Below, piece by piece: positions 9,959 through 42,458 of a stretch of DNA of 64,000 nucleotides (position 1 is its first letter; each line of letters begins with the position of its first letter). Origin of the DNA: Spirochaetaceae bacterium (GTDB lineage Bacteria; Spirochaetota; Spirochaetia; Treponematales; Breznakiellaceae); the NCBI GenBank assembly GCA_031281945.1, contig JAITER010000020.1:986-64985 (forward strand), written 5' to 3'. A program made the position numbers and the translations under genes. The notes beneath the pieces were generated by a model. That model was not told where the DNA came from and searched no databases. It saw nothing but the letters and a program-made list of their open reading frames with translations.

Positions 9959-10184
9959 TACGGCGCAAAACGGGCTGGCGGACAGCCCAATCTTTAGGCC
10001 GGGGTTAAAATCCCTTAACCGCCATGTTTTAAGGTTTAACGGCTGAATTCGCGGGGTTTGATAAACCTGTCGCGGCTAAAACAAGCCGTTAAAATCCCGC
10101 CAAACCTTGGTTTTTTCTAATTTGCGGGAACTTTTCGGGCCGGGCGTGTTGCGAATAGAGCTTAAAATCATTATCTTTTACGAT

Positions 10185-13100
10185 ATGTTTGAGGGCGGAT
10201 TGCGGCGCAAATGCGAAACCGGATTATCTAAAGCCAGGACGATTTTACAAAGAATTATTTTTTTAAAAATCGCGGGTTTTGCGTTTATTTTCTGTAGTTG
10301 CACCCAGCCGGAAGAATCGCCGCCGCCTTCTACACCCTCGCCGGCGCCGAAGCTCGAAATCCCGGCCCCCCCAAGCTCCATTCGGACGGCTTTTACCGGA
10401 GACGGCAGCGTAAGCCTTTATTGGGAACATATTTACAACGCTTTTTCGTACGAAATTGGAGTTTTTTTAGGGGGCGCCGCCGCGCCTTCGCCCGAAGAAA
10501 TACAAGTCTGGCCGGACGTCGCTTTCACCATAAATTCCAAAGGCGTAAACGCCCTGGTAAAAAAACTTGAAAACAACGCCGTATACTGGTTTTACGCCAG
10601 ATCGTTAAACCCGTCCGGCGAATACGGCGACTGGAGCCCGCCGGAACGGGCGGTTCCTCACTCCAGAGCGGTGGCGGTTTTGGACGAAAACGGCGTTGAA
10701 GAAGCGAATTTCGGCTTTATAATCCAGGCTATAGATTATGTTAATTCCATCTCCGCAGTTAAAAAATCTTACACCATAGCTGTAACTTCGGACAATCAAA
10801 AAATAAAAGAGGCGCAGTTGACCGCCGGAAAGGATTTAACTTTAACCAGCGACGGCAGGGAAGTTTTTCTGGACGGCGCGGACGGCTCCATGCTGGCCGT
10901 TTCTTCAGGAACGCTTAGGCTGGAAAACATTACGTTGACGGGCGTTCCGTCAAACACAAGCGCGTTAATAACGGTTTCCAGCGGCGCCGCTTTGACTCTG
11001 GACGGAGGGGCCGTTGTATGCAAAAACGGAACCGGAATATCCGCCGGGCTTGGCGGGGAGCTTTTTATTTTAGGCGGGGGCGGCCAGAGCGCCGGCCTCT
11101 CCGCGCCGGGCGGCAGGGTGACGGGTTGCGTGGACGGCGTTAAGGTTAACGGCGGGCTATGCCTGGTTGGGGAATTCGCCGAAATAGAGCGAAACACAGG
11201 CTCCGGCGTTTCAGTTTTGAGCGGCGGAATTGCGCGTATAAAGGGATTTTCAAAAATAAAAAACAACGGTTGCGGCGTGAATTTAACTAACGGAAAGGTT
11301 TCTTTAGAAGATGAAGCGCTTATAGAAGGCAATAACGCGCAGGCTGTTTATATTGGAATTGAAGGCGTTTCGTTTGAGATGAAAGGCGGAACCTTGAAAG
11401 GCGGCGCCGGCGCGTCCGGCGGCGTTCAAGTTGAAGGCGGCTGTTTTAAGGCGCTGGGCGGAAGCGTTTACCTGGAAATTGAACAAAACGGCGGAAGCGT
11501 GTCTGTGGAAGATGGAATTATTTACGGCGCGTTCACAGTTAAAAAAGAAACGGCCGTTGTAAAGGGCGGGCTTTTTAACGGCCCGGTTACGGTAAACGGG
11601 GACGGCGCCGCGCTGGAAATGACAGGCGGCGAGGCGTCTAAAGGGGTTGTGGTAGAAAACGGCCTTTTTAAGATGACCGGCGGAAATGTTTCGGGGGACG
11701 GCGTAATTGTAGGGGAAGGGGATGGCGCGGAAATACAGATGGGCGCCGATGCTAAAGTTGATTTATCCGGCGCTTCAAACTGCGTTTTTTTGCCGGCGGA
11801 CAAAAAAATAAAAATTATTTCGCAAATAACTAACGCTGTAGCCGCCGCCATAGCCCCCCGCGCCTCCGGCGACCAGGCGCTCTGGTACGTAACGGGCAGG
11901 GCGGTTTTGGAAGAGGAGCAAGGCGCCGGTCTTTTAGCGGCGGCTTCCGCTCATTTTAAAATACTTAAAAGCGCAGACGCCGCCGTCTGGAGTTTAAGCG
12001 GCGGCGCGCTAGCGCAGGCGGCTACGGTTTATGTGGCGTCAAACGGCGATGATGCGGGAGACGGGTCTCAAAGCGCCCCTTACGCCACGCTGGAAAAAGC
12101 TGTGGAGCAGACTGTTACAGGCGGCGTTATAATCATTTCGGGGTCTATTTCGCCGCAGTCAGGCTGGAGCGGCTCGCCGTTCAATATAGCCTGCGATAAA
12201 AAAATAACCCTGGAAGGCGTAAACGAGGCTGAACTTCGAGCGCCGCCCGGTGCGCCTTGCGACGCGACTTTAAAAATTGATGGAACCGCCATTGTTGAAA
12301 TAAACGGCGTCAAATTTAAAAACGATTCTTCAACTGGCAACGAAAAAATGTTGCTTATAAGCGGTTCAGCCGCCGTATTTTGCGGCGCCGGCGTTGTGTT
12401 TGAATCGGGAGGCGGGGTGTGGAGCGAATCTGCGGGCGGCGCCGCTTCAACAATTTCCTGCGCCGTATCCAGCGCCGTCCTGGAAGGAAGCTCAGGCGGC
12501 TCTTTAATAGTGTACGGCGCGGTGGCGAATGGCGCGCGCGTAAATGGAAGCGGTAAAATTACGCTAAAAGGCGAGGTTTTAGGCGGAATTACTGTTGAAG
12601 GCGGCGGAACCGCGGACTTGCAAAACACCGTCCGGGGGGACGCCGAGGTAAAAGACGGCTTGTTGATAATGAACGGCTCAGAATCAAAGGTTTTGGGCCA
12701 AGTGATACTTAACGATGATAACGCGGCGGCGGCTTCCAGCCCCAGCGCTGTTTTCGGCGCCCTTATAGTAAATAATTTAAAAGACGGCGCGCCGGATATA
12801 AACGCGCAAATAACAGGCGTTTTGGAAATGAACGCCGCGGGTAAAACTCTCGTTCTAGGATCCGCTGTAGGCGGCGAAAGCGAGGTTAAAGCCGGCTCGC
12901 TCGTTATGAAAGAAGGCGCCTCTTTCGCCAGGCGCCTTAAAATCTTATCGCGGGCGCAATTGCTTGGCGTGGTGGATTCTTTTGTAGCGGAAGGAAGCGC
13001 CGCGGCTCAAACAAGCGGCGATTTGCGGGTTCTAAACGGCGCTTCCATAACCGGAAACTCAACTTTTGAAATTGCAAGCAGGGTTTCGGGAAACATTGAT

Positions 13101-14273
13101 TTTAACGGCGCCCGCCTTTCTTTAGTTGGTCCTGGCGCCTCTTGCGGCGAGGGGGCGATAACGCTTTATGACGGCAAAACCATTGACGTGGAAGGAACGC
13201 TCAACGCGGCTTCCGCCGGAAAAATCAAAACTTTAAGCCCTCTGCCAAATTCCATAACCGGAAGCGCGGACGGCGTTCTTCAACTTATAAAAGAAGGCGC
13301 GGCGGAAAACTACACAAAATTTACAATTGATGAAACGAGCCCGTTTTACGACAAACGTCATTTTATAGACGCGCAAGGGCGCGCCAGGTTTAATTTTGCG
13401 AAAGGCGGGAATGTAAGTTATGTTACCGAAGCTAACGGTGAAGTTTTTGAAATCCATACTTTTTACGCCATTCCATACGATTCTCAAACTCAAACCCTGG
13501 AATTTTTCAAGAAGCCCCAGGGTTCGGCGGCGCGCGTTCTTGTAGCCGCCGGCGGCGGTTCCGGCGGTTATGGCGCCGGGAACGCTCTTGGCGGCGGCGG
13601 CGGCGCGGGCGGCGTTAGGGAAGACCCGGCTTACCCTTTAAAATCGTTGATATACACGATAACGGTTGGCGCCAGCGGAAAACCCGATTTTAACCCTGGC
13701 GGCATTAACGGAGGGGCTGGTCTTAACGGCGGCTCTTCCACCATTTCTACGGTTGACAATTTAGACCAGATTACAGCGGTTGGCGGCGGCGGGGGCGCTT
13801 CCGGTTTAAGCCCGCGTGAAGGCAAAAGCGGCGGCTCCGGCGGCGGGGCTTCCGGCGCGAACAGCATGGGAAAAGCAAATTCCGGCGGCGGTAAACAGGA
13901 CGGCTCCGTTATCGGCGAAACTTTTTATGGAACTTTTTACGGGAATCCTGGAGGCGGCGGGATTGATGATAAAACCGGCGTCGAAAATATATCCGCGGGC
14001 GGCGGAGGCGGGGCCGGAAGCGCCGGCAAGGCTGTGGCGGCGCCGGAAACAGGCCGTCTTTTGGGCGGCGGGAGCGGGCGCGAAATAAAAATATCGGTGC
14101 GTTCAGACCAAAACGGCGAGATTTACGCCATAGGCGGCCACGCCGCCAACCTAAAAGGAGACTGCCTATACGTCCCGGTTCCAAACACAGGCTCAGGGGG
14201 AATGGGCGGCTGGGGCGGGGCCGGCGGCGGCGGAGCTGACGGCGTGGTAATAGTGCGCTTTAAAGTGCGTTAA
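10185..14273 (+). CDS. Giant surface lipoprotein: Fn3-like domain, beta-helix-like repeats and a C-terminal glycine-rich domain
   Basis: Open frame 10107-14273. ATG 10185 precedes the lipobox FAFIFCSC. An Fn3-like segment is present (SVSLYWEHIYNAFSYEIG...YWFYARSLNPSGEYGDWSPP). Many G/A/V-rich turn repeats follow. The C-terminal ~250 aa carries GGGxGG blocks and ends GGGGADGVVIVRFKVR. Confidence 0.8.
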   Translation: MFEGGLRRKCETGLSKARTILQRIIFLKIAGFAFIFCSCTQPEESPPPSTPSPAPKLEIPAPPSSIRTAFTGDGSVSLYWEHIYNAFSYEIGVFLGGAAAPSPEEIQVWPDVAFTINSKGVNALVKKLENNAVYWFYARSLNPSGEYGDWSPPERAVPHSRAVAVLDENGVEEANFGFIIQAIDYVNSISAVKKSYTIAVTSDNQKIKEAQLTAGKDLTLTSDGREVFLDGADGSMLAVSSGTLRLENITLTGVPSNTSALITVSSGAALTLDGGAVVCKNGTGISAGLGGELFILGGGGQSAGLSAPGGRVTGCVDGVKVNGGLCLVGEFAEIERNTGSGVSVLSGGIARIKGFSKIKNNGCGVNLTNGKVSLEDEALIEGNNAQAVYIGIEGVSFEMKGGTLKGGAGASGGVQVEGGCFKALGGSVYLEIEQNGGSVSVEDGIIYGAFTVKKETAVVKGGLFNGPVTVNGDGAALEMTGGEASKGVVVENGLFKMTGGNVSGDGVIVGEGDGAEIQMGADAKVDLSGASNCVFLPADKKIKIISQITNAVAAAIAPRASGDQALWYVTGRAVLEEEQGAGLLAAASAHFKILKSADAAVWSLSGGALAQAATVYVASNGDDAGDGSQSAPYATLEKAVEQTVTGGVIIISGSISPQSGWSGSPFNIACDKKITLEGVNEAELRAPPGAPCDATLKIDGTAIVEINGVKFKNDSSTGNEKMLLISGSAAVFCGAGVVFESGGGVWSESAGGAASTISCAVSSAVLEGSSGGSLIVYGAVANGARVNGSGKITLKGEVLGGITVEGGGTADLQNTVRGDAEVKDGLLIMNGSESKVLGQVILNDDNAAAASSPSAVFGALIVNNLKDGAPDINAQITGVLEMNAAGKTLVLGSAVGGESEVKAGSLVMKEGASFARRLKILSRAQLLGVVDSFVAEGSAAAQTSGDLRVLNGASITGNSTFEIASRVSGNIDFNGARLSLVGPGASCGEGAITLYDGKTIDVEGTLNAASAGKIKTLSPLPNSITGSADGVLQLIKEGAAENYTKFTIDETSPFYDKRHFIDAQGRARFNFAKGGNVSYVTEANGEVFEIHTFYAIPYDSQTQTLEFFKKPQGSAARVLVAAGGGSGGYGAGNALGGGGGAGGVREDPAYPLKSLIYTITVGASGKPDFNPGGINGGAGLNGGSSTISTVDNLDQITAVGGGGGASGLSPREGKSGGSGGGASGANSMGKANSGGGKQDGSVIGETFYGTFYGNPGGGGIDDKTGVENISAGGGGGAGSAGKAVAAPETGRLLGGGSGREIKISVRSDQNGEIYAIGGHAANLKGDCLYVPVPNTGSGGMGGWGGAGGGGADGVVIVRFKVR

Positions 14274-14455: not shown

Positions 14456-15664
14456 ATGAAAATAAAATTTATTATAAAAACGATTGTTTTTTTGTTTGCT
14501 GTTTTTGGTTTGTGCGCGTTTATTTTCCCAAAAATCTCAAGCCTTACGGTTCCGGTTTTACAGCCTGAAAAAGCGGCGGACGCGGAGGATGCGGAGGCGC
14601 GGACGGCTGAAAAAGCTGAAATTCCGGCCTCCATTCTGCTACAGGCGAAAGAGGCGGCCGCGGCTCTTGGCGTTGACGCGCTAGCCGCTCAGGTTATAAT
14701 GACCGGCGTGGACGCTAACGGTTTCCTGGGCGAGGCCGAAAAAGCCGTCCTTTCCGCCGTTCCAGCCGGAGCGGTGATGCTTTTTAGAAAAAATTTAACC
14801 GCGCCGGTTGACGGCATAATTCAAACAAATATGGAAATTAGCGCCGTTATAAGCGCTTCCTGCGGAATAAAGCCTTTTATAGCGGTGGATCACGAAGGCG
14901 GGGACGTCCAGCGCTTTACAAACGCCGCCGCCCTGCCGCCGCCGCTCTCGTATTGGGAAAAAGCGCAAACAGACGGCTGGGAGACGGCCATTCTTCAAAT
15001 TAAAACGGACGCCGCCTATTCCGGCGCCGAACTGCGTAAAATGGGCGTAAACTTGAACCTGGCGCCTGTGGCGGAAATTTTTACAGCCGAAAACGCCGGG
15101 TTCCTGAAATCCCGTTCCTACGGCCCTGCCGCCGCTTTTGTGGAAAAAGCCGCCGCGTCTTTCGCCGCCGGCATGGAAGAAAGCGGCGTTTTGTGCGTGG
15201 TAAAGCATTTTCCCGGAAATTCTTCGCAAGACCCGCACGTTTCCAAACCGGTCTGGAACGCGGATATAGATACTTTAAAAAGCCTCACTTCACCTTTCTC
15301 GTACTATTTTAAGACGTTTCCGGCGGGCGCCGTTATGATTTCGCACGTTATAGTAAGCGCGTGGGACGGTGAGCAAAACGCCAGCCTTTCGCCGCAAGTG
15401 ATAAAACGTTTGCGGGAGGAATACGGTTTTAACGGCCTAATCATCGCAGACGATTTCTCCATGGGAGCCGTCTCCGGGGGGCTTGCTACGGAAGAATACG
15501 CGGTGCGGGCCTTAAAAAGCGGCGTTGATATGGTGATGTCCTGGCCCGCGAATTACCGCTCGACTCACAACGCCATAGTCCGCGCCGTAGAAAATTCCGG
15601 TTTGCCGAAAGAACGCCTGCTGGAAGCCGCCGCCCGCGTGATAGCCGCCAAACATCTGTTGTAA
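14456..15664 (+). CDS. nagZ: Beta-N-acetylhexosaminidase, GH3 family (NagZ-like) with an N-terminal hydrophobic anchor or signal
   Basis: 402 aa. GH3 motifs FIAVDHEGGDVQRF and VVKHFPGNS are present. The N-terminal segment IVFLFAVFGLCAFIF suggests export or membrane anchoring. Confidence 0.85.
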   Translation: MKIKFIIKTIVFLFAVFGLCAFIFPKISSLTVPVLQPEKAADAEDAEARTAEKAEIPASILLQAKEAAAALGVDALAAQVIMTGVDANGFLGEAEKAVLSAVPAGAVMLFRKNLTAPVDGIIQTNMEISAVISASCGIKPFIAVDHEGGDVQRFTNAAALPPPLSYWEKAQTDGWETAILQIKTDAAYSGAELRKMGVNLNLAPVAEIFTAENAGFLKSRSYGPAAAFVEKAAASFAAGMEESGVLCVVKHFPGNSSQDPHVSKPVWNADIDTLKSLTSPFSYYFKTFPAGAVMISHVIVSAWDGEQNASLSPQVIKRLREEYGFNGLIIADDFSMGAVSGGLATEEYAVRALKSGVDMVMSWPANYRSTHNAIVRAVENSGLPKERLLEAAARVIAAKHLL

Positions 15665-15886
15665 AGCCGCGCGCAAAATTCCGGGGCCGGGCGCGGAACG
15701 CGGCTTCTTGTTTTTTTATTGCGGTTGTTTAAAAACCGCAAGTTTTTACAATCTGAACCAGGGCCGGGCTTGATTCAAGCCAACTTCCATTAAAAAACGC
15801 GGGTTTGCAAGACGACAGCCTGTGAAAACCGCGAGACGATGGCAAAGCTTAAGCCATCCGCGGGCGGGCTGGCGGGCGGCGGGTTG

Positions 15887-15916
15887 TTGAACAACTCGAT
15901 TGATTCAGTTTATAAT
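15887..15916 (+). promoter_or_regulatory. Candidate sigma70-type promoter for the Pmp-repeat lipoprotein gene
   Basis: TTGAAC (15887-15892), an 18-nt spacer, then TATAAT (15911-15916). The ATG at 15929 lies 13 nt downstream of the -10 box. Confidence 0.4.
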
Positions 15917-15950
15917 TATGACAAAAGTATGAAAACGAAATCCTATAGTA

Positions 15951-15966
15951 CCCCCCCCCCCCCCCC
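15951..15966 (+). repeat. Poly-C homopolymer (16 nt)
   Basis: Counted directly: C at 15951-15966, flanked by a at 15950 and ttg at 15967-15969. Confidence 0.97.
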
Positions 15967-18900
15967 TTGAAAGCCTTTTTGCTTTTTTGCGCTTTTATTT
16001 TAATTCTGGCTTTTTCAGGTTGCGGAGCGGAGATAAACCCCGACTTTGAGGGCTTTATAAAAAACGAGTTGCGCAAGGTGCATACCATGACGTACTCGGT
16101 GGTGGACGTAAAAATAACGCTTCCGCCATACCGCGATGTTTACGAAATGGGCGAGGCGTGGGCTCCCGTGAATCCGGATAATCCCGAAGATGGGATTGAG
16201 GCGGCTGTAACGATAGGGGGCGGCACGGTTTATCCGTATTATTTTGAAAGTTTTAATTCCCAGACGAATATTCTCACGATGAAGGGCGAAGACGGTAAAA
16301 GTCTGAGTTTTAGGCTGGACGGCTTTAACACGGCGTCAGAGGGCTCCAGGCGTCTGCGTCTTACGGCGCTGAACGGCGCGGGCGAGGATCTTAAAACGCC
16401 GGTTTTGCCGGCGGATTATCTGTGGAAGTTTGAGAGGGAAGGGGAGACGCTTTTTTGCGATCTTGACTACAAGGTTGTAAAGTTGGGCGGTCTTGACGGA
16501 GATATAGGCCTTTCGTTTTACCTCGGCGGTTTTGGCGGCGTGTACGCTAACGTGGAGCGTTTCGATATAGGGGAGGAGATTGGCGGCGTAGTTAGGGCGG
16601 CTCCGGGTTACAGGCTGAAAGACGGCGGTCTTAAATGCGTGGGCGCTTATCTGAGCGGAGGTATGGATATTTGGGTCGGGGAGGGCGTCTGGAAAAGCGA
16701 GGCGTCGTGGAACGGTCTGGAATATCCGTTTAGCTTCAAGATAAATGCGGAGAACATGAAGATGCTGTGCGATGTTGAGCTTTTCGCCGCGTTTGAGATG
16801 GAGGAGTACGCTATGACGCTTCCCGCCGCCGCAGAGGGCGGAAGGGTCATAGCGGTGGAAGTTAACGAGACGGCTTACGATGCGGGAGAGGGCGGCCTTT
16901 TTCCGGTTTCGTTGCGTATGGGCGACCGTGTAAGGCTTGTCATGAAAGCGGATTCCGGCTGGGTTTTGAGCAAAGACGGCGTCTCTTACGAGGCGGATCG
17001 TTTTGGAAGCTTTACTATACCTTCCGGCTACACGGACGCATCTAGCGGGGATTCCGCCGGCGAGTTTCTTTGCCCCGCTTCGAATATAAAGGTTAGGGTT
17101 GTGTTTGAGGACTTAACTATATCGTATATAACGGCGAGCGGTTATAAGAGTTCGTATGGTTTGTACGACCAGTTTGACGGCGGCGGGATAAGCGTTAACG
17201 GCGTTATGAGCGACCGGAATTCGCAGGTTGTCGATTTAACGGATGAAGCGGAATTTGAATCTGGCGGCTGGAACAATAACGCGGAGCGGCATTTTGACAA
17301 ACCCGGCAAATGGGAAGTGATTGTAAGGGCCCGCGGCAAGATGACGGTGTTTGTTGTGAATGTTTCTGGCGAAGACTTTGTCGCGGCGCGGACTGTGGGA
17401 GGCGCGCGTGTGTTTTACAAGAGCGTGCGGGCCGCTATAGACGCGGCCGCCGCATCTGGAGATGCCTCCTCCACCATATCGCTGGTTTCCGATGTAACGG
17501 TTAAAAACTCCGCCCCCTACGGGCCGAAAGAGGAGGCGCCGGTTTTAATAGGCGGCGGCGTGAATGTGGTGATTAACAGCTCTGGCGGCGAGCGAACCAT
17601 AAAGCTCGCGGACGAGTTTTCCGGGTTTATTTTTAAGGTTGAATCGGGCGCGAGCCTTACGCTGGAAGGCGGGGCGGGGTCGCTAACGCTTTCAGGCGGG
17701 GCGGTTTGGGGGCCGGAGGCGGGGGGCGGCGGCGCCGTGAACCAGGGCTTTTTGTCTTACGGCCCGCTTGTGAGAGTTGAAGGCGGCGTCTTTACATTAA
17801 AAGACGCCGTTGCGTTGCGAAACAATCAATATGCGGGCGGCGATGGCGGCGGAGTCGCCATATTGTATGGGACTTTTAATATGCTGGGCGGCGTCATAGA
17901 GTCCTGCGCGGCGCCCTCAGGCGGCGGGGTTTACTTGATCGACGGCGAATTTAATTTTTCCGGCGGTGAGATTTCCGGCAATTTCGCGGCGAACTCAGGC
18001 GGCGGCTTTTACTTGATCGACGGCGAATTTAACTTTTCCGGCGGTGAGATTTCCGGTAATTTCGCGCTCTCAGGCGGCGGCGTATATAATAGCGGCGGCT
18101 CTTTAAAAATGAACGGCGGCGTTATCTACGGCAATAAAGCGGGAACGGGAAGCGGGGTTTATAACGCCGGCGCTTTTACGGTTATGGGCGGTTCCGCTTT
18201 AATAGCGGCTAACAACGACTTTTACGCTAACGGCAATCACGGAATAAAAGTGGAAGCGCCTCTTGAGGCTCAAAAAGCGGCGGTAATCACGCCGGGAAAT
18301 TACAATGACGCCAATTCAGTTTTGGTGGATGTTGACTCGATTGCGGACGATTTCCAGGCCGCCGCGCAAATAAACAAGTTTTCTTTAACGCCCAATGCGA
18401 GCGGCGAAATCTACTTTTTAAAGAGTTCAAACCCCGGCCGCGGGAAAATCGTTTCCGCCGCATTCTCCCGCGGCTCGGCGGGCCTAACCTTATACTATCA
18501 AGATTTGCAAACGGCGCTTGCCGAAGCCGCTTACTCGGACGAGATTACGGTTCTTAAAAACGCGGAAGATGTCGGGGAGGATGTTTTCATTCAAAAGTTC
18601 ATCACATTAAAACCCGCCGCCGGAAAAAACATTAAACTAACGGCTTCTTTTACGGCGGAAAGCGGCGGCGCTCTGCGGCTTTCGGGGAACTCCGGCGGCG
18701 TTCTAACTTTAACGCCCAGCAACTCCTTCACAAGCGCGGTTTCGGTGGAAAACGGCGGCTCCTTTATACTAGCTGGCGGCGCCGTTATTTCAGGCGGCGC
18801 GGCGCAAAGGTCCGTCTCGCTTGCGCGGATAAACAGCGGCGGGGTTTTTAGAATGGACGGCGGGGAATTGAAAGAAGCCGATGTAGAAGGCTACGGCGGC

Positions 18901-20283
18901 GCCGTTTATAACGAGGCCGGCGGGACTTTTACCATAACAGGCGGCTCCATTTCCGGCGCCAAGGCGGATAGAGACGGCGGCGCGATTTACAACGCCGGGA
19001 CTTTTACAATGACGGGCGGCTCCATTTCCAACAACACCGCATATAGCAACGGCGGGGCGGTTTTCAACGACAATGGTGCGCTTACAATGACGGGCGGCTC
19101 CATTTCCGGCAACAATGCTAGCAGTGGAGGCGGGGCGGTTTACAACAAAAAAGGAACGTTCACAATAAGAAACGGAGAGGTTTCCGCTAACAAGGCCAGC
19201 AATGCCGGCGGGATGGTTTACAACGAAGGCGGGGCGATTGAAATAGCGGGCGGGGCGGTTTCCGGCAACGGAGCCGGCAATGCGGGCGGGGCGGTTTTCA
19301 ACGACAACGGTACGCTTGCAATTACAGGCGGCTCCATTTCCGGCAACACGGCGAATAGCAATGGCGGGGCGGTTTTCAATACTTTAAAATTTACAATGAC
19401 AGGCGGCGAAATCAGCGGGAATACGGCGTCCGTTCAAAACGGCGGCGCGGTTTACAACGCCGGGACTTTTACAATGTCAGACGGCGAAATCAGCGGCGGT
19501 AACAAGGCCAAAAAAAGCGGCGGCGCGATTTACAACGAGGGGACGCTTGAAATTACAGGCGGCTCCATTTCCGGCGCCAAGGCGGATCTAAACGGCGGGG
19601 CGGTTTACAACATCGGCATGTTTACAATGTCGGGCGGGAAGCTTGATAGCAACAGTACCGGAGAAGGCGGCGCGATTTACAACGCCGGGATGTTTACAAT
19701 GACGGGCGGTTTTATTTCCAACAACAACTCCACCAACGGCGGCGGGGTTTTCAACGAAGATGGGACGTTTACCATGGAAGGCGGCGAAATTTCCGGCAAC
19801 AATGCTGGTAGTGGAGGCGGGGGAGTTTACAACAAAAAAGGAACGTTCACAATAAGAAACGGAGACGTCTCCGCTAACAGAGCCAGCAATGCCGGCGGGG
19901 CGGTTTACAACGAAAAGGGTACGATTGAAATGACGGGCGGGGCGTTTTACGAAAACATGGCGTATAACAACGGCGGCGGGGTTTTCAACGAAGATGAGAC
20001 GTTTACCATGGAAGGCGGCTCCATTTTCGGCAACACGGGGTATAACAGCGGCGGGGCGGTTTTCAACACCGGGACTTTTACAATGACAGACGGCGAAGTC
20101 AGCGGCAACACGGCGTATCAAGCCGGCGGCGCGATTTACAACACCAAGACGTTTACAATGACAGGCGGCTACATTTCCGGTAACAGCGCCAGTATAGGCG
20201 GCGCGATTTGCAACAATAGTGGCGCTGAATGCGCCATTGCCGATTACAATTTTATAGCGCCCGACAACGATATTAAATTGTAA
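15967..20283 (+). CDS. Giant surface lipoprotein with polymorphic-outer-membrane-protein (Pmp)-type repeats; probably phase-variable
   Basis: 1438-codon open frame. Lipoprotein signal KAFLLFCAFILILAFSGC. The C-terminal ~600 aa holds more than 20 repeats of GGAIYN/GGAVFN...FTMTGGxISGN, matching Pmp repeat motifs. No C-terminal autotransporter barrel is evident. The only in-frame start is a TTG directly after C16, and the upstream ATG 15929 is out of frame at this tract length. Confidence 0.85.
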   Translation: MKAFLLFCAFILILAFSGCGAEINPDFEGFIKNELRKVHTMTYSVVDVKITLPPYRDVYEMGEAWAPVNPDNPEDGIEAAVTIGGGTVYPYYFESFNSQTNILTMKGEDGKSLSFRLDGFNTASEGSRRLRLTALNGAGEDLKTPVLPADYLWKFEREGETLFCDLDYKVVKLGGLDGDIGLSFYLGGFGGVYANVERFDIGEEIGGVVRAAPGYRLKDGGLKCVGAYLSGGMDIWVGEGVWKSEASWNGLEYPFSFKINAENMKMLCDVELFAAFEMEEYAMTLPAAAEGGRVIAVEVNETAYDAGEGGLFPVSLRMGDRVRLVMKADSGWVLSKDGVSYEADRFGSFTIPSGYTDASSGDSAGEFLCPASNIKVRVVFEDLTISYITASGYKSSYGLYDQFDGGGISVNGVMSDRNSQVVDLTDEAEFESGGWNNNAERHFDKPGKWEVIVRARGKMTVFVVNVSGEDFVAARTVGGARVFYKSVRAAIDAAAASGDASSTISLVSDVTVKNSAPYGPKEEAPVLIGGGVNVVINSSGGERTIKLADEFSGFIFKVESGASLTLEGGAGSLTLSGGAVWGPEAGGGGAVNQGFLSYGPLVRVEGGVFTLKDAVALRNNQYAGGDGGGVAILYGTFNMLGGVIESCAAPSGGGVYLIDGEFNFSGGEISGNFAANSGGGFYLIDGEFNFSGGEISGNFALSGGGVYNSGGSLKMNGGVIYGNKAGTGSGVYNAGAFTVMGGSALIAANNDFYANGNHGIKVEAPLEAQKAAVITPGNYNDANSVLVDVDSIADDFQAAAQINKFSLTPNASGEIYFLKSSNPGRGKIVSAAFSRGSAGLTLYYQDLQTALAEAAYSDEITVLKNAEDVGEDVFIQKFITLKPAAGKNIKLTASFTAESGGALRLSGNSGGVLTLTPSNSFTSAVSVENGGSFILAGGAVISGGAAQRSVSLARINSGGVFRMDGGELKEADVEGYGGAVYNEAGGTFTITGGSISGAKADRDGGAIYNAGTFTMTGGSISNNTAYSNGGAVFNDNGALTMTGGSISGNNASSGGGAVYNKKGTFTIRNGEVSANKASNAGGMVYNEGGAIEIAGGAVSGNGAGNAGGAVFNDNGTLAITGGSISGNTANSNGGAVFNTLKFTMTGGEISGNTASVQNGGAVYNAGTFTMSDGEISGGNKAKKSGGAIYNEGTLEITGGSISGAKADLNGGAVYNIGMFTMSGGKLDSNSTGEGGAIYNAGMFTMTGGFISNNNSTNGGGVFNEDGTFTMEGGEISGNNAGSGGGGVYNKKGTFTIRNGDVSANRASNAGGAVYNEKGTIEMTGGAFYENMAYNNGGGVFNEDETFTMEGGSIFGNTGYNSGGAVFNTGTFTMTDGEVSGNTAYQAGGAIYNTKTFTMTGGYISGNSASIGGAICNNSGAECAIADYNFIAPDNDIKL

Positions 20284-26398: not shown

Positions 26399-27045
26399 GG
26401 AAAACTTTTGGTGGGTCTGGGAGGCCTAGGCCTCCCAGCGGGGGGGGGGGGGTGGCGGAACGTGCTCAAAGTATCGTGCGCACTCACGCCCAGCGGCGCC
26501 GCAAACTTGTGGGGGGTCTGGGAGGCCTAGGCCTCCCAGCGGGGCCGTCCGCCTTTTCTACGGCTGGGGCCATTATCGGGCCCCACGCTGGGCCGCCTGA
26601 TACGGTGGGACGCGCTCAAAGTATCGTGCGCATTCACGCCCAGCGGCGGGGCCGGTCGCCTTCTTTACAGCGGGGGCCATTATCGGGCCACGCGCTGTGC
26701 CGCCTGGGTTGGCGGGCCGCGCTCAAAGTATCGCGCGCATTCACGCCCAGCGGGGGAACTGGGGGCGGAGCCCCCAGCGGCAACCAAGACGCGAGCCGCT
26801 ATCGGCCCCACGCTGTGCCGCCTGGGGTGGGGGCCGCGCTCAAAGTATCGTGCGCACTCACGTCCAGCGGGGCCGGTCGCCTTCTTTACAGCGGGGGCCA
26901 TTATCGAGCCCCCGCTGTGCCGCCTGATACGGTGGGACGCGCTCAAAGTATCGCGCGCACTCACGCCCAGCGGGGGAACTGGGGGCGGAGCCCCCAGCGG
27001 CAACCAAGACGCGAGCCGTCGCCCTGGGTTAGCCGGACGCGGCGC
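26399..27045. repeat. GC-rich mosaic tandem repeat cluster (BIME-like), non-coding
   Basis: A ~37-bp core, GCTCAAAGTATCG(T/C)GCGCA(C/T)TCACG(C/T)CCAGCGG, starts at 26464, 26614, 26721, 26838 and 26941. It is interleaved with three recurring modules. These include the palindromes ctgggaggcctaggcctcccag (twice) and ctgggggcggagcccccag (twice). A G13 tract lies at 26440-26452. Confidence 0.9.
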
Positions 27046-27161
27046 CGCTAGAAAGCGCAAGCGATTGAAATGGAAATCCCGCAGAAAGCCGCTTGCGGCT
27101 TTTGAGGAATTGGAATGAAAAGCGCGGTTTTTGCGTAGCAAAAATGCGTCGGGCGGCGTTG

Positions 27162-40973: not shown

Positions 40974-41633
40974 ATGCTTTTTGGAATTCCAGGGCGCGTT
41001 AAACGGTTCGTGTTTCTTGCGGCGCGTTTTCCGCAGGTTTTTACGAAAGTGGAGCGTATAGAAAACGCCCTGATACATCAACACGCGGCGGTTAGCGGGG
41101 CGGCGGCTGTTACTGTAGAGCGCGGCGGGGCGCGGATTGATTTTTTTAGTTCAGCCTTTCCAAAAAACGTCCCGTTAAATATAAAAAAAATGGACGCGCA
41201 TAAAGTTTTATACAAAAATACGGAAACTCTTACACATAAAAATATTGACGAATTACGGGCGGGGGGGGGGGGGGGCTGTTCCCTTATCGTTGTAGGCGGC
41301 CCGTTTGGCGGCCCCCGGTATTCACGTTCTTTAATTATACATATTGTAAAATGCGGCGTTCCAAAACAGTTTTGTATATTTTTGGATGATGCGGAGAGGC
41401 GCGGCGAAAAAGAGACTATCGCCGAAATTTGCGAGGCGCTGGAATGCGCGGGCGTAAATTTTCTAAAAGCTGAATACAAGGGCGAAAAAAAACAGGCGTA
41501 CGGTTATTTGCTCCCAAGACCTGCGGTTTTTAACGCCGCTCCGTTAGCCGCCGGCAAGCGCCGGCGTTATAAAAAATGTAAATTATTCTTATTCTTATAT
41601 GCGGGCCCGGCTTGCGGCGCAAGTAATTTTTGA
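40974..41633 (+). CDS. Hypothetical protein with an internal poly-G tract
   Basis: 219-codon open frame. AAGGGA lies 6 nt before ATG 40974, and an alternative ATG is at 41190. G15 at 41261-41275 encodes AGGGGG. I recognise no family. It sits immediately upstream of the GT8-like gene. Confidence 0.35.
   Translation: MLFGIPGRVKRFVFLAARFPQVFTKVERIENALIHQHAAVSGAAAVTVERGGARIDFFSSAFPKNVPLNIKKMDAHKVLYKNTETLTHKNIDELRAGGGGGCSLIVVGGPFGGPRYSRSLIIHIVKCGVPKQFCIFLDDAERRGEKETIAEICEALECAGVNFLKAEYKGEKKQAYGYLLPRPAVFNAAPLAAGKRRRYKKCKLFLFLYAGPACGASNF
41261..41275 (+). repeat. Poly-G homopolymer (15 nt) inside ORF 40974-41633
   Basis: Counted directly: G at 41261-41275, flanked by c at 41260 and c at 41276. Confidence 0.97.
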
Positions 41634-41654: not shown

Positions 41655-42458
41655 ATGGCTTTTAAGTATTTATATGTGCTGGTGAGCGCGGATGCGGATT
41701 TTTATTACGAGCAATTTTACATCTCCGCATTTTCGCTTAAAATGAGGGTTCCGGGGGCCTTTGTTTCGGTTTTAACGGACGACTCTACGGCCCCCCGTTT
41801 GAGCGAACTCCGTGTTGCGGGGGGGGGGGGGGGCGATCCTTTAATAGACGAAATAGTCGTTCCAGACATACCGGCGGACGTTCCGCAAATGATTAGATCG
41901 CGTTTTTTGAAGACGTCCATGCGCAAACATATAGCGGGCGATTTTTTGTATATAGACGCTGATACAGTTGTGGCGGAAGATTTGTCGTGTATAGAGGATA
42001 TAAACGCGGATTTGGCGATGGCTTTGGATATGCACGGCGCGGACGACGAAAAGTGGCTTATAAACGTGAATGAAAAAAAGTATTCGTTTTATAATTCTTT
42101 GGAAGCTCCGCTTGGCGAGTATTATAACAGCGGCGTTATATTGTGCCGGGACGTCCCGCGAAATCATGTTTTTTTTAAAGACTGGCACAAAAACTGGCTG
42201 GACTCTGTTTCCATGGGTGTGCCTATTGATCAGCCTTCTTTGCACAAAACAAACGCCGGCGCCGGGTTCGTTATTAAAGAATTGGACGGAATATGGAACT
42301 GCCAAATAAAAAGATCCCACATTTTAGCGTATCTGGCCGCCGCTAAAATAATTCATTATTTTGGAAGCTGGGGGGGGGGTTTCCGTTGTATAAACTGGCT
42401 TCGGAAGAAAATTTTAACTTCGTTAAAAAAACAAACTCGCTCTCCGCCGAATGTTTAA
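41655..42458 (+). CDS. GT8-like glycosyltransferase (nucleotide-diphospho-sugar transferase fold), phase-variable
   Basis: SD AAGGAG lies 8 nt upstream. YVLVSADADFYY, a DxD motif in FLYIDADTVV and YNSGVILCRD resemble LPS/LOS GT8 enzymes. It contains G15 (in frame) and G10 near the 3' end. At G10 the frame ends at 42458. At G11 it would continue to 42673. Confidence 0.75.
   Translation: MAFKYLYVLVSADADFYYEQFYISAFSLKMRVPGAFVSVLTDDSTAPRLSELRVAGGGGGDPLIDEIVVPDIPADVPQMIRSRFLKTSMRKHIAGDFLYIDADTVVAEDLSCIEDINADLAMALDMHGADDEKWLINVNEKKYSFYNSLEAPLGEYYNSGVILCRDVPRNHVFFKDWHKNWLDSVSMGVPIDQPSLHKTNAGAGFVIKELDGIWNCQIKRSHILAYLAAAKIIHYFGSWGGGFRCINWLRKKILTSLKKQTRSPPNV
41819..41833 (+). repeat. Poly-G homopolymer (15 nt) in the 5' third of the GT8-like gene
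   Basis: Counted directly: G at 41819-41833. It is read as GCG GGG GGG GGG GGG GGC (AGGGGG). Confidence 0.97.
42370..42379 (+). repeat. Poly-G homopolymer (10 nt) near the 3' end of the GT8-like gene
   Basis: Counted directly: G at 42370-42379. Confidence 0.97.

What the first reader, a model, noticed from the sequence alone, without database searches (positions are those of the whole stretch)
15929..15970. C16 tract between an ATG and the open frame of the giant Pmp-repeat lipoprotein gene: a likely slipped-strand ON/OFF switch
What the sequence shows:
- A candidate promoter (TTGAAC, 18 nt, TATAAT at 15887-15916) is followed by an ATG at 15929.
- With the 16 C present (15951-15966), that frame reads MKTKSYSTPPPPP and hits TGA at 15968-15970.
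- One extra C, or two fewer, fuses this ATG in frame to LKAFLLFCAFILILAFSGC..., a lipoprotein signal peptide, and then to the 1438-codon Pmp-repeat frame.
- At C16 the only in-frame start is a TTG at 15967. It is preceded by poly-C rather than any Shine-Dalgarno sequence.

A homopolymer a few codons after the start of a surface protein gene is the classic layout of contingency loci in Neisseria, Haemophilus and Campylobacter. In Treponema pallidum, poly-G tracts control tpr genes.

Inference: the gene is phase-variable and is OFF, or only weakly translated, in this assembly.
Basis: partly seen in the sequence, partly recalled or inferred. Interest (0 to 1): 0.75.

Follow-up and report, generated by a model that had tools for sequence, protein, structure and literature searches.

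The report
Poly-C frameshift switch in spirochaete lipoprotein gene
A run of 16 C's sits between a start codon and the export signal of a giant adhesin-like lipoprotein gene in an uncultured spirochaete, so gaining or losing C's during replication should switch the protein on or off; this kind of switch is well known, and here the layout is shown but the switching is not.

Summary
ATG 15929 is followed by C16 (15951-15966) and TGA 15968-70. C14, C17 or C20 fuse that ATG to a lipoprotein signal peptide and a 1438-codon open frame.

The tract is not chance. About 6e-6 C runs of 16 or more are expected. The window holds five G/C runs of 10-16 and none of 8-9.

The gene is LBC53_01895 of a 'Spirochaetaceae bacterium' MAG. 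It encodes an adhesin-like beta-solenoid with Chlam_PMP repeats and no autotransporter barrel.

Support is indirect:
- The only promoter-like site lies upstream of the ATG.
- The ATG has the A/T-rich context of this genome's real starts. TTG 15967 has poly-C.
- An independent assembly of the same run breaks inside the tract.
- A nearby GT8 glycosyltransferase gene carries G15 and G10 tracts. G10 is out of frame relative to 320-340 aa homologues.

Tract-length variation could not be shown, because the organism occurs in one sample only. TTG 15967 alone gives a normal-length signal peptide (Cys19), so "OFF" may mean "low".

Verdict: a credible slipped-strand translational switch, a new member of a known kind, of moderate interest.

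The parts
15719..15741 (+). Terminator-like hairpin plus T-run after the upstream GH3 gene (14456-15664). It makes the lipoprotein gene its own transcription unit.
   Evidence: Scan; GH3 identified by Pfam.
15887..15916 (+). Sigma-70-like promoter, TTGAAC-18 nt-TATAAT. The predicted transcription start is near 15923, which leaves a leader of only about 6 nt before the ATG (inferred).
   Evidence: 10 of 12 matches; the only promoter-like site in 15500-16200 (listed in two registers), against 0.6 expected.
15929..15931 (+). Candidate true start codon (ATG). It is in frame with the long ORF only when the tract is C14, C17 or C20.
   Evidence: The upstream 20 nt are 85% A+T, at the top of the range for 27 confident gene starts (mean 63%).
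15929..15970 (+). The 13-codon reading MKTKSYSTPPPPP* seen in the assembled C16 state. Its TGA overlaps TTG 15967 (TTGA).
15951..15966 (+). C16 homopolymer, the proposed slipped-strand switch. It encodes 4-6 prolines in the n-region of the signal peptide when in frame.
   Evidence: Expected number of C runs of 16 or more is 6e-6. Logan contig L001 from the same run ends after 15 C's.
15967..16023 (+). Lipoprotein signal peptide, (M/L)KAFLLFCAFILILAFSG-C. TTG 15967 is a possible tract-independent weak start. TTG 15979 is the start chosen by the public annotation. The Cys codon is 16021-16023.
   Evidence: The Cys followed by GAEINPDF is conserved in paralogue P0012, and a lipobox Cys is present in P0013 and P0014.
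15967..20283 (+). Giant lipoprotein gene (LBC53_01895, MDR2601195.1). It has a rare N-terminal domain of about 600 aa, then beta-solenoid repeats with Chlam_PMP motifs, and no autotransporter barrel.
41819..41833 (+). Context: G15 tract inside the GT8 glycosyltransferase gene (41655-42458). It is in frame and encodes a GGGG insertion that is absent from homologues.
   Evidence: Logan contig L005 shows the same length.
42370..42379 (+). Context: G10 tract in the same GT8 gene, out of frame in the assembly. G11 or G8 restores a 339-aa frame that aligns with 320-340 aa homologues to the end.
   Evidence: invariant L248, K258, L271 and P274 lie after the tract.
41261..41275 (+). Context: G15 tract inside the annotated 219-aa hypothetical ORF (40974-41633). 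An ATG at 41191 lies 23 codons before it.
   Evidence: No Pfam hit.
26440..26452 (+). Context: G13 tract at the edge of an intergenic GC-rich tandem array. It is not at the 5' end of a gene.

Best explanation
The C16 tract is a simple-sequence contingency switch acting on translation.

Proposed mechanism:
- Transcription starts at the promoter-like site 15887-15916. This gives an mRNA with a very short, A/T-rich and unstructured leader.
- Ribosomes start at ATG 15929 and read MKTKSYST and then the tract as prolines.
- With C14, C17 or C20 they continue into LKAFLLFCAFILILAFSG-C. The product is a pre-lipoprotein with a long, positively charged n-region. It would be exported, lipidated at Cys and displayed as a beta-solenoid, adhesin-like protein of about 1420 aa.
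- With C13, C16 or C19 they stop at TGA 15968, which overlaps TTG 15967.
- With C12, C15 or C18 they run about 27 codons out of frame across the signal-peptide region.
- Slipped-strand mispairing at replication changes the tract length reversibly. A population would then hold ON and OFF cells.
- In the assembled state (C16) the gene is OFF. At most it is expressed at a low level from TTG 15967, possibly by termination-reinitiation at TTGA.

Shown: the anatomy, the frames, the non-random tract, the gene class and the presence of further tracts nearby, one of them out of frame.

Inferred: the transcription start, use of ATG 15929, hypermutability in this organism and surface exposure.
For: - Frames and fusion arithmetic were verified for C11 to C21.
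- The tract is far beyond chance: 6e-6 expected. The window has five G/C runs of 10, 13, 15, 15 and 16. No G/C runs of 8-9 occur, and no A/T run exceeds 9.
- The only promoter-like site lies upstream of the ATG. Terminator-like hairpins separate the gene from the GH3 gene.
- ATG 15929 has 85% A+T in its upstream 20 nt, like the confident starts of this genome (mean 63%). TTG 15967 has 15% A+T and 80% C. That is outside the range of all 27 starts but one, which is probably mis-set.
- The predicted 5' end folds no better than shuffles (z = +1.6).
- The gene class fits. It has a lipobox Cys conserved with the paralogue and homologues and Chlam_PMP repeats. The model is a regular 3-stranded beta-solenoid (pTM 0.79). 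Its nearest, weak, PDB matches are autotransporter adhesin passengers: Ag43, Vag8, pertactin and Fap2.
- The same window has a GT8 gene with two G tracts. The G10 tract is out of frame against 464 homologues of about 320-340 aa. Frame-breaking tracts in surface-structure genes are therefore a feature of this genome.
- Logan contig L001, an independent k-mer assembly of run SRR14710905, ends after exactly 15 C's. A 16-nt tract is shorter than the assembly word size as I understand it (k = 31, from my own knowledge, not stated by the tool). The break therefore suggests a branch between C15 and longer tracts, or a loss of read quality there.
Against: - No tract-length polymorphism was observed. 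The species occurs in one sample only. Pattern and protein scans of genome and metagenome collections found nothing.
- The contig break can be a sequencing artefact. Another Logan contig starts with an obviously artefactual C25 at the G15 tract near 41261.
- TTG 15967 alone gives MKAFLLFCAFILILAFSGC with Cys19. That is the same length as other lipoprotein signal peptides here (MKKIVLLFAAACVLLSAGC and MVQLKRLLLLFLTVVLFYSC). The paralogue P0012 has an ordinary signal peptide without prolines. The ATG-led extension is therefore not needed for export.
- There is no Shine-Dalgarno sequence before ATG 15929. Many genes here lack one too.
- The leader peptide before the tract is only 8 codons. Its openness carries little statistical weight.
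- All experimentally studied Treponema poly-G switches act on transcription, not translation (PMC7864442).
Confidence: 0.6

Rival explanations
1. The gene starts at TTG 15967 (or 15979), and the poly-C lies in the 5' untranslated region. Tract length then tunes expression without changing the protein. It could do so transcriptionally, as in Treponema pallidum tpr, tp0126 and tprL. It could also do so through the short upstream ORF, whose stop overlaps the TTG only at C13, C16 or C19 (translational coupling). In that reading C16 would be an expressing state.
For: - The TTG-started signal peptide has the typical length for this organism (Cys19).
- The public annotation starts the gene after the tract (TTG 15979).
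- The TTGA overlap of stop and start is visible in the sequence.
- Known Treponema switches are transcriptional (PMC7864442).
Against: - The tract is 35 nt downstream of the -10 box of the only promoter-like site. No -35/-10 pair brackets it.
- A TATAGT at 15944-15949 has no acceptable -35 (read directly).
- Sixteen C's directly before a TTG is unlike any confident start context here.
- TTG without a Shine-Dalgarno sequence is a weak start (general knowledge).
- Starting at 15979 leaves a signal peptide with no positive charge.
Confidence: 0.17
2. There is no working switch. The tract length in the assembly is simply mis-called or fixed. The real sequence might be C17 or C14, with a constitutively in-frame ATG. 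Alternatively the gene is a decaying pseudogene, and its paralogue LBC53_01585 does the job.
For: - Short-read assemblies are unreliable by one base or more at 16-nt homopolymers.
- The Logan assembly breaks at this tract and shows a garbled C25 junction at the G15 tract near 41261.
- No population data are available.
- A 69%-identical paralogue with a normal signal peptide exists in the same MAG.
Against: - The 1438-codon frame is fully open and keeps its repeats and lipobox.
- Five long G/C tracts in 64 kb, with none of intermediate length, argue for selection for long tracts rather than neutral accident.
- Two independent assemblies agree on G15 and G10 in the GT8 gene, so homopolymer calls in this data set are not random.
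- A 16-nt homopolymer is expected to slip at high frequency in any bacterium (general knowledge). Even a 'fixed' C17 would therefore behave as a switch.
Confidence: 0.18
3. The tract is an assembly chimera. It would be created by poly-G/poly-C artefact reads of two-colour Illumina chemistry, which join two unrelated pieces.
For: Logan contig L005 begins with an artefactual C25 run.
Against: - Both flanks form one coherent gene start: promoter and ATG on the left, signal peptide and ORF on the right.
- The upstream flank plus 15 C's is reproduced in an independent assembly.
- The G15 and G10 tracts inside the GT8 gene are spanned by both assemblies, with homologous protein sequence on both sides.
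Confidence: 0.03

Closest known systems
Homopolymer or dinucleotide repeats in the signal-peptide-coding region of surface protein genes. Examples are Neisseria gonorrhoeae pilC (poly-G) and Helicobacter pylori hopZ, oipA and sabA (CT repeats). Cited from my own knowledge, not checked in a paper here.
   Same: The repeat lies a few codons after the ATG, inside the export signal. A change of one unit shifts the frame and gives ON/OFF translation of a surface adhesin. The repeat-encoded residues are tolerated because the signal peptide is cleaved off.
   Different: - The phylum differs (Spirochaetota), and the organism is uncultured and probably non-pathogenic.
- The tract is poly-C and encodes prolines.
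- A second possible start (TTG) sits directly after the tract, overlapping the OFF-state stop.
- No switching has been shown experimentally.
Treponema pallidum poly-G phase variation of tprE/G/J, tprF/I, tp0126 and tprL (PMC7864442 and the references in it)
   Same: The bacterial family is the same, and G/C homopolymers are associated with putative surface proteins. Many tracts of 8 nt or more are scattered over the genome. Start codons near such tracts have been mis-annotated and signal peptides hidden.
   Different: - In T. pallidum the tracts lie within promoters and change transcription. Eight or fewer G's are permissive for tprE/G/J, and tp0126 needs optimal -35/-10 spacing.
- Here the tract lies downstream of the promoter-like site and inside the reading frame.
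- The tracts here are longer (13-16, against 7-12).
Campylobacter jejuni, Haemophilus influenzae and Neisseria 'phasomes' (PMC6321876, PMC5084427)
   Same: Several long poly-G/C tracts are concentrated in glycosyltransferase and surface-protein genes. In a given genome some are in frame and some out of frame.
   Different: Only 64 kb of one MAG could be examined. No multi-strain comparison is possible.
Haemophilus influenzae lic1A: 5' repeats with alternative start codons that give several expression levels (from my own knowledge)
   Same: A repeat near the 5' end combines with more than one possible start codon, so the three frames need not be simply ON, OFF and OFF.
   Different: lic1A uses a CAAT tetranucleotide repeat and ATG starts. 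Here the repeat is a homopolymer and the second start is a TTG after the tract. This is untested.
Chlamydial polymorphic membrane proteins (Pmp) and other beta-helix autotransporter adhesins (Ag43, pertactin, Fap2)
   Same: GGA(I/V)YN and FTM-type repeats match PF02415. The predicted fold is a right-handed beta-solenoid with weak structural matches to autotransporter passengers.
   Different: There is no C-terminal autotransporter barrel. The protein ends right after the repeats. It would be anchored by an N-terminal lipid instead. The N-terminal domain of about 600 aa has only five detectable relatives among 1.84 billion representative proteins.

Membership tests
SSR-mediated translational phase variation (contingency locus) | A simple-sequence repeat long enough to be hypermutable (homopolymer of about 8 or more) | tested here: met
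   C16 at 15951-15966; 6e-6 expected by chance.
SSR-mediated translational phase variation (contingency locus) | The repeat lies inside the translated region, so a change of one unit alters the frame | tested here: inconclusive
   This is true if ATG 15929 is the start, and its context favours that. TTG 15967 after the tract is a possible alternative start.
SSR-mediated translational phase variation (contingency locus) | Repeat length differs within or between populations | tested here: inconclusive
   The only hint is that Logan contig L001 ends after 15 C's. No other sample or strain was found.
SSR-mediated translational phase variation (contingency locus) | Expression changes with repeat length | not testable with these tools
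   This needs reporters, proteomics or a metatranscriptome.
SSR-mediated translational phase variation (contingency locus) | The genome carries several such repeats, enriched in surface-structure genes | tested here: met
   Five G/C tracts of 10 or more lie in 64 kb. Two are in a GT8 glycosyltransferase gene, one of them out of frame against homologues.
Treponema pallidum-type promoter poly-G switch (transcriptional) | The tract lies within the promoter, either between -35 and -10 or just upstream of the transcription start | tested here: not met
   The tract begins 35 nt after the -10 box of the only promoter-like site. No promoter-like pair brackets it. The transcription start is predicted, not measured.
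Chlamydial Pmp / type V autotransporter | Pmp repeats (GGA[ILV], FxxN) | tested here: met
   PF02415 scores 25.0 bits against a gathering score of 20.6, with 7 stretches, on the C-terminal 527 aa. It was not detected on the full-length protein.
Chlamydial Pmp / type V autotransporter | C-terminal autotransporter beta-barrel | tested here: not met
   No such Pfam or NCBIfam domain was found. The protein ends about 25 residues after the last repeat. The model is solenoid to the end.
Bacterial lipoprotein (signal peptidase II substrate) | A hydrophobic h-region followed by a lipobox with an invariant Cys | tested here: met
   AFLLFCAFILILAF-SG-C. The Cys followed by GAEINPDF is conserved in paralogue P0012, and a lipobox Cys is present in P0013 and P0014. 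F at position -3 is atypical for E. coli but accepted in spirochaetes (own knowledge). No predictor was available.

The most novel reading that the evidence does not exclude
The locus may be a three-level switch rather than a two-state one.
- C14, C17 or C20 fuse the ATG to the gene, giving high expression of a protein with a proline-bearing, extended signal peptide.
- C13, C16 or C19 end a 12-14 codon leader peptide at a TGA that overlaps TTG 15967 (TTGA). Terminating ribosomes could re-initiate there and give low expression of the normal-length pre-lipoprotein.
- C12, C15 or C18 send ribosomes about 27 codons out of frame across the TTG and the signal-peptide region. This would occlude the TTG and silence the gene.

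Together with the GT8 tracts, this would point to a large poly-G/C 'phasome' in a non-pathogenic gut spirochaete. The selective pressure might then be phage or a protist or insect host, rather than adaptive immunity.
Probability: 0.15. Interest if true: 0.5.

Novelty: new member of a known kind. Interest (0 to 1): 0.35.

Why it matters
If the switch works, an uncultured Spirochaetaceae lineage uses the stochastic ON/OFF strategy known from Neisseria, Helicobacter, Campylobacter and T. pallidum. Its nearest relatives by the neighbouring GH3 gene are Treponema MAGs, which I believe come from termite guts. The switch would control a giant adhesin-like lipoprotein and, nearby, a glycan-building enzyme.

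That would extend SSR contingency loci to commensal or symbiotic spirochaetes. It would also show a translational variant in a family where only promoter-located switches have been demonstrated.

In practice:
- It flags a probable start-codon mis-annotation: PGAP starts the gene at TTG 15979.
- It warns that MAG gene calls and contig breaks at such tracts reflect population heterogeneity.

It is not a new principle.

Tried and rejected
Searches that found nothing useful:
- Other strains or samples, to compare tract length. Exact-protein look-ups of both neighbouring genes returned only Logan contigs of the same run, SRR14710905.
- A flank-gap-flank pattern in GTDB genomes gave 0 hits.
- The upstream flank plus C8 in JGI metagenomes gave 0 hits.
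- A profile of the N-terminal domain in JGI metagenomes gave 0 relatives.
- Synteny in relatives through the GH3 gene gave only two Treponema MAGs at 41-46% identity. They have no giant gene downstream and no long G/C runs.

- A word-indexed homologue search with the fused N-terminus returned nothing, not even the gene itself. I judge this a candidate-list artefact, because the exhaustive search found the gene itself plus five relatives.
- DNA of the paralogue LBC53_01585 is not on record.

Ideas tested and dropped:
- RNA structure that hides either start codon, or pairs the C tract with the upstream G-rich block. Folding energies are no better than shuffles.
- Rfam families at the tract: none. 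The window has only two tRNAs.
- A repeated promoter or leader cassette elsewhere in the window: the sequence is unique.
- Sequence relatives with solved structures: none.
- A gene on the minus strand across the tract: only a 79-aa ORF with no support.
- ATG 15839 as the start: it lies upstream of the promoter-like site and would put the hydrophobic core about 45 residues from the N-terminus.
Full report
**1. The observation**

Reading 15600-16300 and a script confirm the finding base for base.
- ATG lies at 15929-15931.
- Sixteen C's occupy 15951-15966.
- The frame reads MKTKSYSTPPPPP and ends at TGA 15968-15970.
- TTG 15967 opens the 1438-codon ORF 15967-20283. It begins LKAFLLFCAFILILAFSG-C.
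- In the long frame a TAG at 15946-15948 sits just before the tract. At C16 nothing upstream of TTG 15967 can start the protein.

Rebuilding the region with 11 to 21 C's gives three classes.
- 11, 14, 17 or 20 C's join the ATG to the long frame (1449-1452 aa).
- 13, 16 or 19 C's give a 12-14 aa peptide.
- 12, 15, 18 or 21 C's give a 38-41 aa out-of-frame peptide.

The promoter-like site TTGAAC-18-TATAAT (15887-15916) scores 10 of 12. It is the only promoter-like site in 15500-16200, listed by the scan in two registers (17- and 18-nt spacer, same -10). Shuffles average 0.6 sites. A terminator-like hairpin follows the upstream GH3 gene.

**2. More than chance**

- C runs in the window fall off smoothly to length 7 and then jump to 16.
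- G runs fall off to 7 and then show 10, 13, 15 and 15.
- A and T runs never exceed 9.
- A first-order model expects 6e-6 C runs of 16 or more, and about 0.19 G or C runs of 10 or more in total. Five are seen.
- Long G/C homopolymers are therefore a selected feature of this genome.

**3. What the gene is and where it comes from**

Source:
- Exact look-ups place the window in a 68,925-bp contig of an NCBI MAG named 'Spirochaetaceae bacterium' (locus tags LBC53_*). Logan also assembled it from run SRR14710905.
- The gene is LBC53_01895 (MDR2601195.1), annotated as a hypothetical protein. PGAP starts it at the second TTG (15979), giving 1434 aa.
- The nearest genomes by the neighbouring GH3 protein are two Treponema MAGs at 41-46% identity. 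They show no synteny and no long tracts.

Protein:
- The C-terminal 527 aa pass the Pfam gathering score for Chlam_PMP repeats.
- That segment folds, even without an alignment, into a regular three-stranded beta-solenoid (pTM 0.79).
- Its best PDB matches are weak (none at E of 0.001 or below). They are autotransporter adhesin passengers and tailspikes.
- There is no autotransporter barrel.
- An exhaustive search of 1.84 billion representative proteins found the gene itself plus five relatives of the N-terminal 578 aa. The three that align from the N-terminus (P0012, P0013 and P0014) have a lipoprotein-type signal peptide.
- One relative, P0012, is a 69%-identical paralogue in the same MAG (LBC53_01585). 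Its signal peptide is ordinary (MNFFIRGAFFSSVIFAVAVVSFFSG-C), and its mature N-terminus is identical (CGAEINPDF).
- The product is therefore a lipid-anchored, adhesin-like beta-helix protein. Surface exposure is inferred.

**4. Which start codon?**

This decides whether C16 means OFF.

For ATG 15929:
- It follows the only promoter-like site. The predicted leader is very short.
- Its upstream 20 nt are 85% A+T, as in the confident genes of this window (mean 63%). Many of those genes also lack a Shine-Dalgarno sequence.
- The predicted 5' end is unstructured.
- MKTK is a typical signal-peptide beginning.

Against TTG 15967:
- It is preceded by 16 C's (15% A+T). No other confident start looks like that.
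- TTG 15979, the PGAP choice, leaves a signal peptide with no positive charge.

For TTG 15967:
- MKAFLLFCAFILILAFSGC puts the Cys at residue 19.
- Other lipoproteins in the window are the same length: MKKIVLLFAAACVLLSAGC and MVQLKRLLLLFLTVVLFYSC.
- The stop of the short peptide overlaps it (TTGA). That is a layout compatible with re-initiation.

I weigh this as roughly 3:1 for the ATG as the main start. Leaky TTG use is possible.

**5. Evidence for actual variation**

This could not be obtained.
- The organism is present in one run only.
- DNA-pattern scans of GTDB genomes and JGI metagenomes, and a protein-profile scan of JGI metagenomes, found nothing.
- The one hint is that Logan contig L001 ends after exactly 15 C's. 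The tract is shorter than the assembler's word size as I understand it (k = 31, from my own knowledge). The break would then imply a branch (C15 against longer) or a collapse of read quality there.
- Another Logan contig begins with an artefactual C25 at the G15 tract near 41261. The artefact reading cannot be dismissed.

**6. Context that strengthens the switch reading**

The GT8-family glycosyltransferase gene 41655-42458 carries two tracts, G15 and G10.
- Both assemblies agree on both lengths.
- Against 464 homologues of about 320-340 aa, the G15 tract encodes a GGGG insertion that none of the eight aligned homologues has.
- The G10 tract breaks the frame. One more G restores a 339-aa protein that aligns to the end of the homologues. 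Invariant residues (L248, K258, L271, P274) lie after the tract.
- This genome therefore holds at least one tract-bearing surface-structure gene caught out of frame. Contingency loci look just like this.

A further G15 lies 23 codons after an ATG in a small hypothetical ORF. A G13 lies at the edge of an intergenic tandem array.

**7. Mechanism proposed**

The proposal is slipped-strand mispairing at the C tract during replication. It would toggle translation that starts at ATG 15929 between in-frame and out-of-frame states.
- In-frame states (C14, C17, C20) yield an exported, lipidated protein.
- Out-of-frame states yield a short peptide.
- The C16 state may allow weak coupled initiation at TTG 15967. 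The C15 and C18 states would sweep ribosomes across it.
- Confidence in the basic switch is about 0.6.

**8. Rivals**

- (a) Start at TTG, with the tract in the untranslated leader, tuning expression (0.17). The T. pallidum-type promoter mechanism is not supported, because the tract lies 35 nt downstream of the -10 box.
- (b) No working switch: a mis-called or fixed length, or gene decay (0.18).
- (c) Assembly chimera (0.03). Coherent flanks and the second assembly contradict this.

**9. Comparison with known systems**

In function, the closest systems are repeats inside signal-peptide-coding regions (Neisseria pilC, H. pylori hopZ, oipA and sabA; own knowledge). The Campylobacter and Neisseria phasomes are also close (PMC6321876, PMC5084427).

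T. pallidum is the closest by taxonomy. Its tracts sit in promoters (PMC7864442).

The protein has Pmp-type repeats but fails the autotransporter criterion. It is Pmp-like, not a Pmp.

**10. Verdict**

- The finding is real, non-random and sensibly interpreted.
- It is a new member of a known kind, in an unusual host lineage.
- Its key prediction, tract-length heterogeneity, remains untested.
- Interest is 0.35.

Noticed in passing
window 41655-42458 (tracts at 41819-41833 and 42370-42379): A GT8-family glycosyltransferase gene carries two G tracts. G15 is in frame and encodes a GGGG insertion absent from homologues. G10 truncates the protein to 267 aa, whereas G11 restores a conserved 339-aa frame. 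It is probably a second, better-supported phase-variable gene.
   Followed up: yes
window 41191-41633 (tract at 41261-41275): A G15 tract lies 23 codons after an ATG in the small annotated hypothetical ORF LBC53_01980. The layout matches the main finding. There is no Pfam hit, and the segment after the tract (IIHIVKCG...FCIFLDD) looks like the start of a glycosyltransferase fold. It is unclear whether this is a live gene or a remnant.
   Followed up: partly
window 26400-27050: This is a GC-rich intergenic tandem array (periods of about 107 and 220 nt, 2-4 copies). A G13 tract lies at its left edge. Two copies of the 18-nt palindrome GGGAGGCCTAGGCCTCCC are present. There is no Rfam match and no annotated gene.
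   Followed up: partly
window 15861-15884: A G-rich block, GCGGGCGGGCTGGCGGGCGGCGGG (four G3 runs, quadruplex-like), lies immediately upstream of the -35 box of the lipoprotein gene. It is complementary in composition to the C tract. RNA folding of the region is no better than shuffles.
   Followed up: partly
L001 11496-11510; L005 1-40: Logan contigs of run SRR14710905 break at the long tracts. L001 stops after 15 C's. L005 starts with a spurious C25 and a one-base deletion next to the G15 tract at 41261. Such tracts fragment k-mer assemblies and can leave artefactual homopolymer tips.
   Followed up: yes
window 15979 (annotation MDR2601195.1): The public annotation starts the giant gene at the second TTG. 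That gives a signal peptide, MLFCAFILILAFSGC, with no charged n-region. It is probably a start-codon mis-call caused by the tract.
   Followed up: yes
window 10107-14273: A second giant gene (1388 aa, with a Gly_rich_2 domain at its C-terminus) lies two genes upstream. Its N-terminus as listed is not signal-peptide-like, and the gene callers disagree on the start (1388 aa against 1375 aa).
   Followed up: no
paralogue LBC53_01585 (P0012; a different, 11,759-bp contig of the same MAG): This is a 69%-identical paralogue of the N-terminal domain, with an ordinary signal peptide. It is cut off at a contig end. Its DNA could not be retrieved, so it is unknown whether it also carries a tract.
   Followed up: partly
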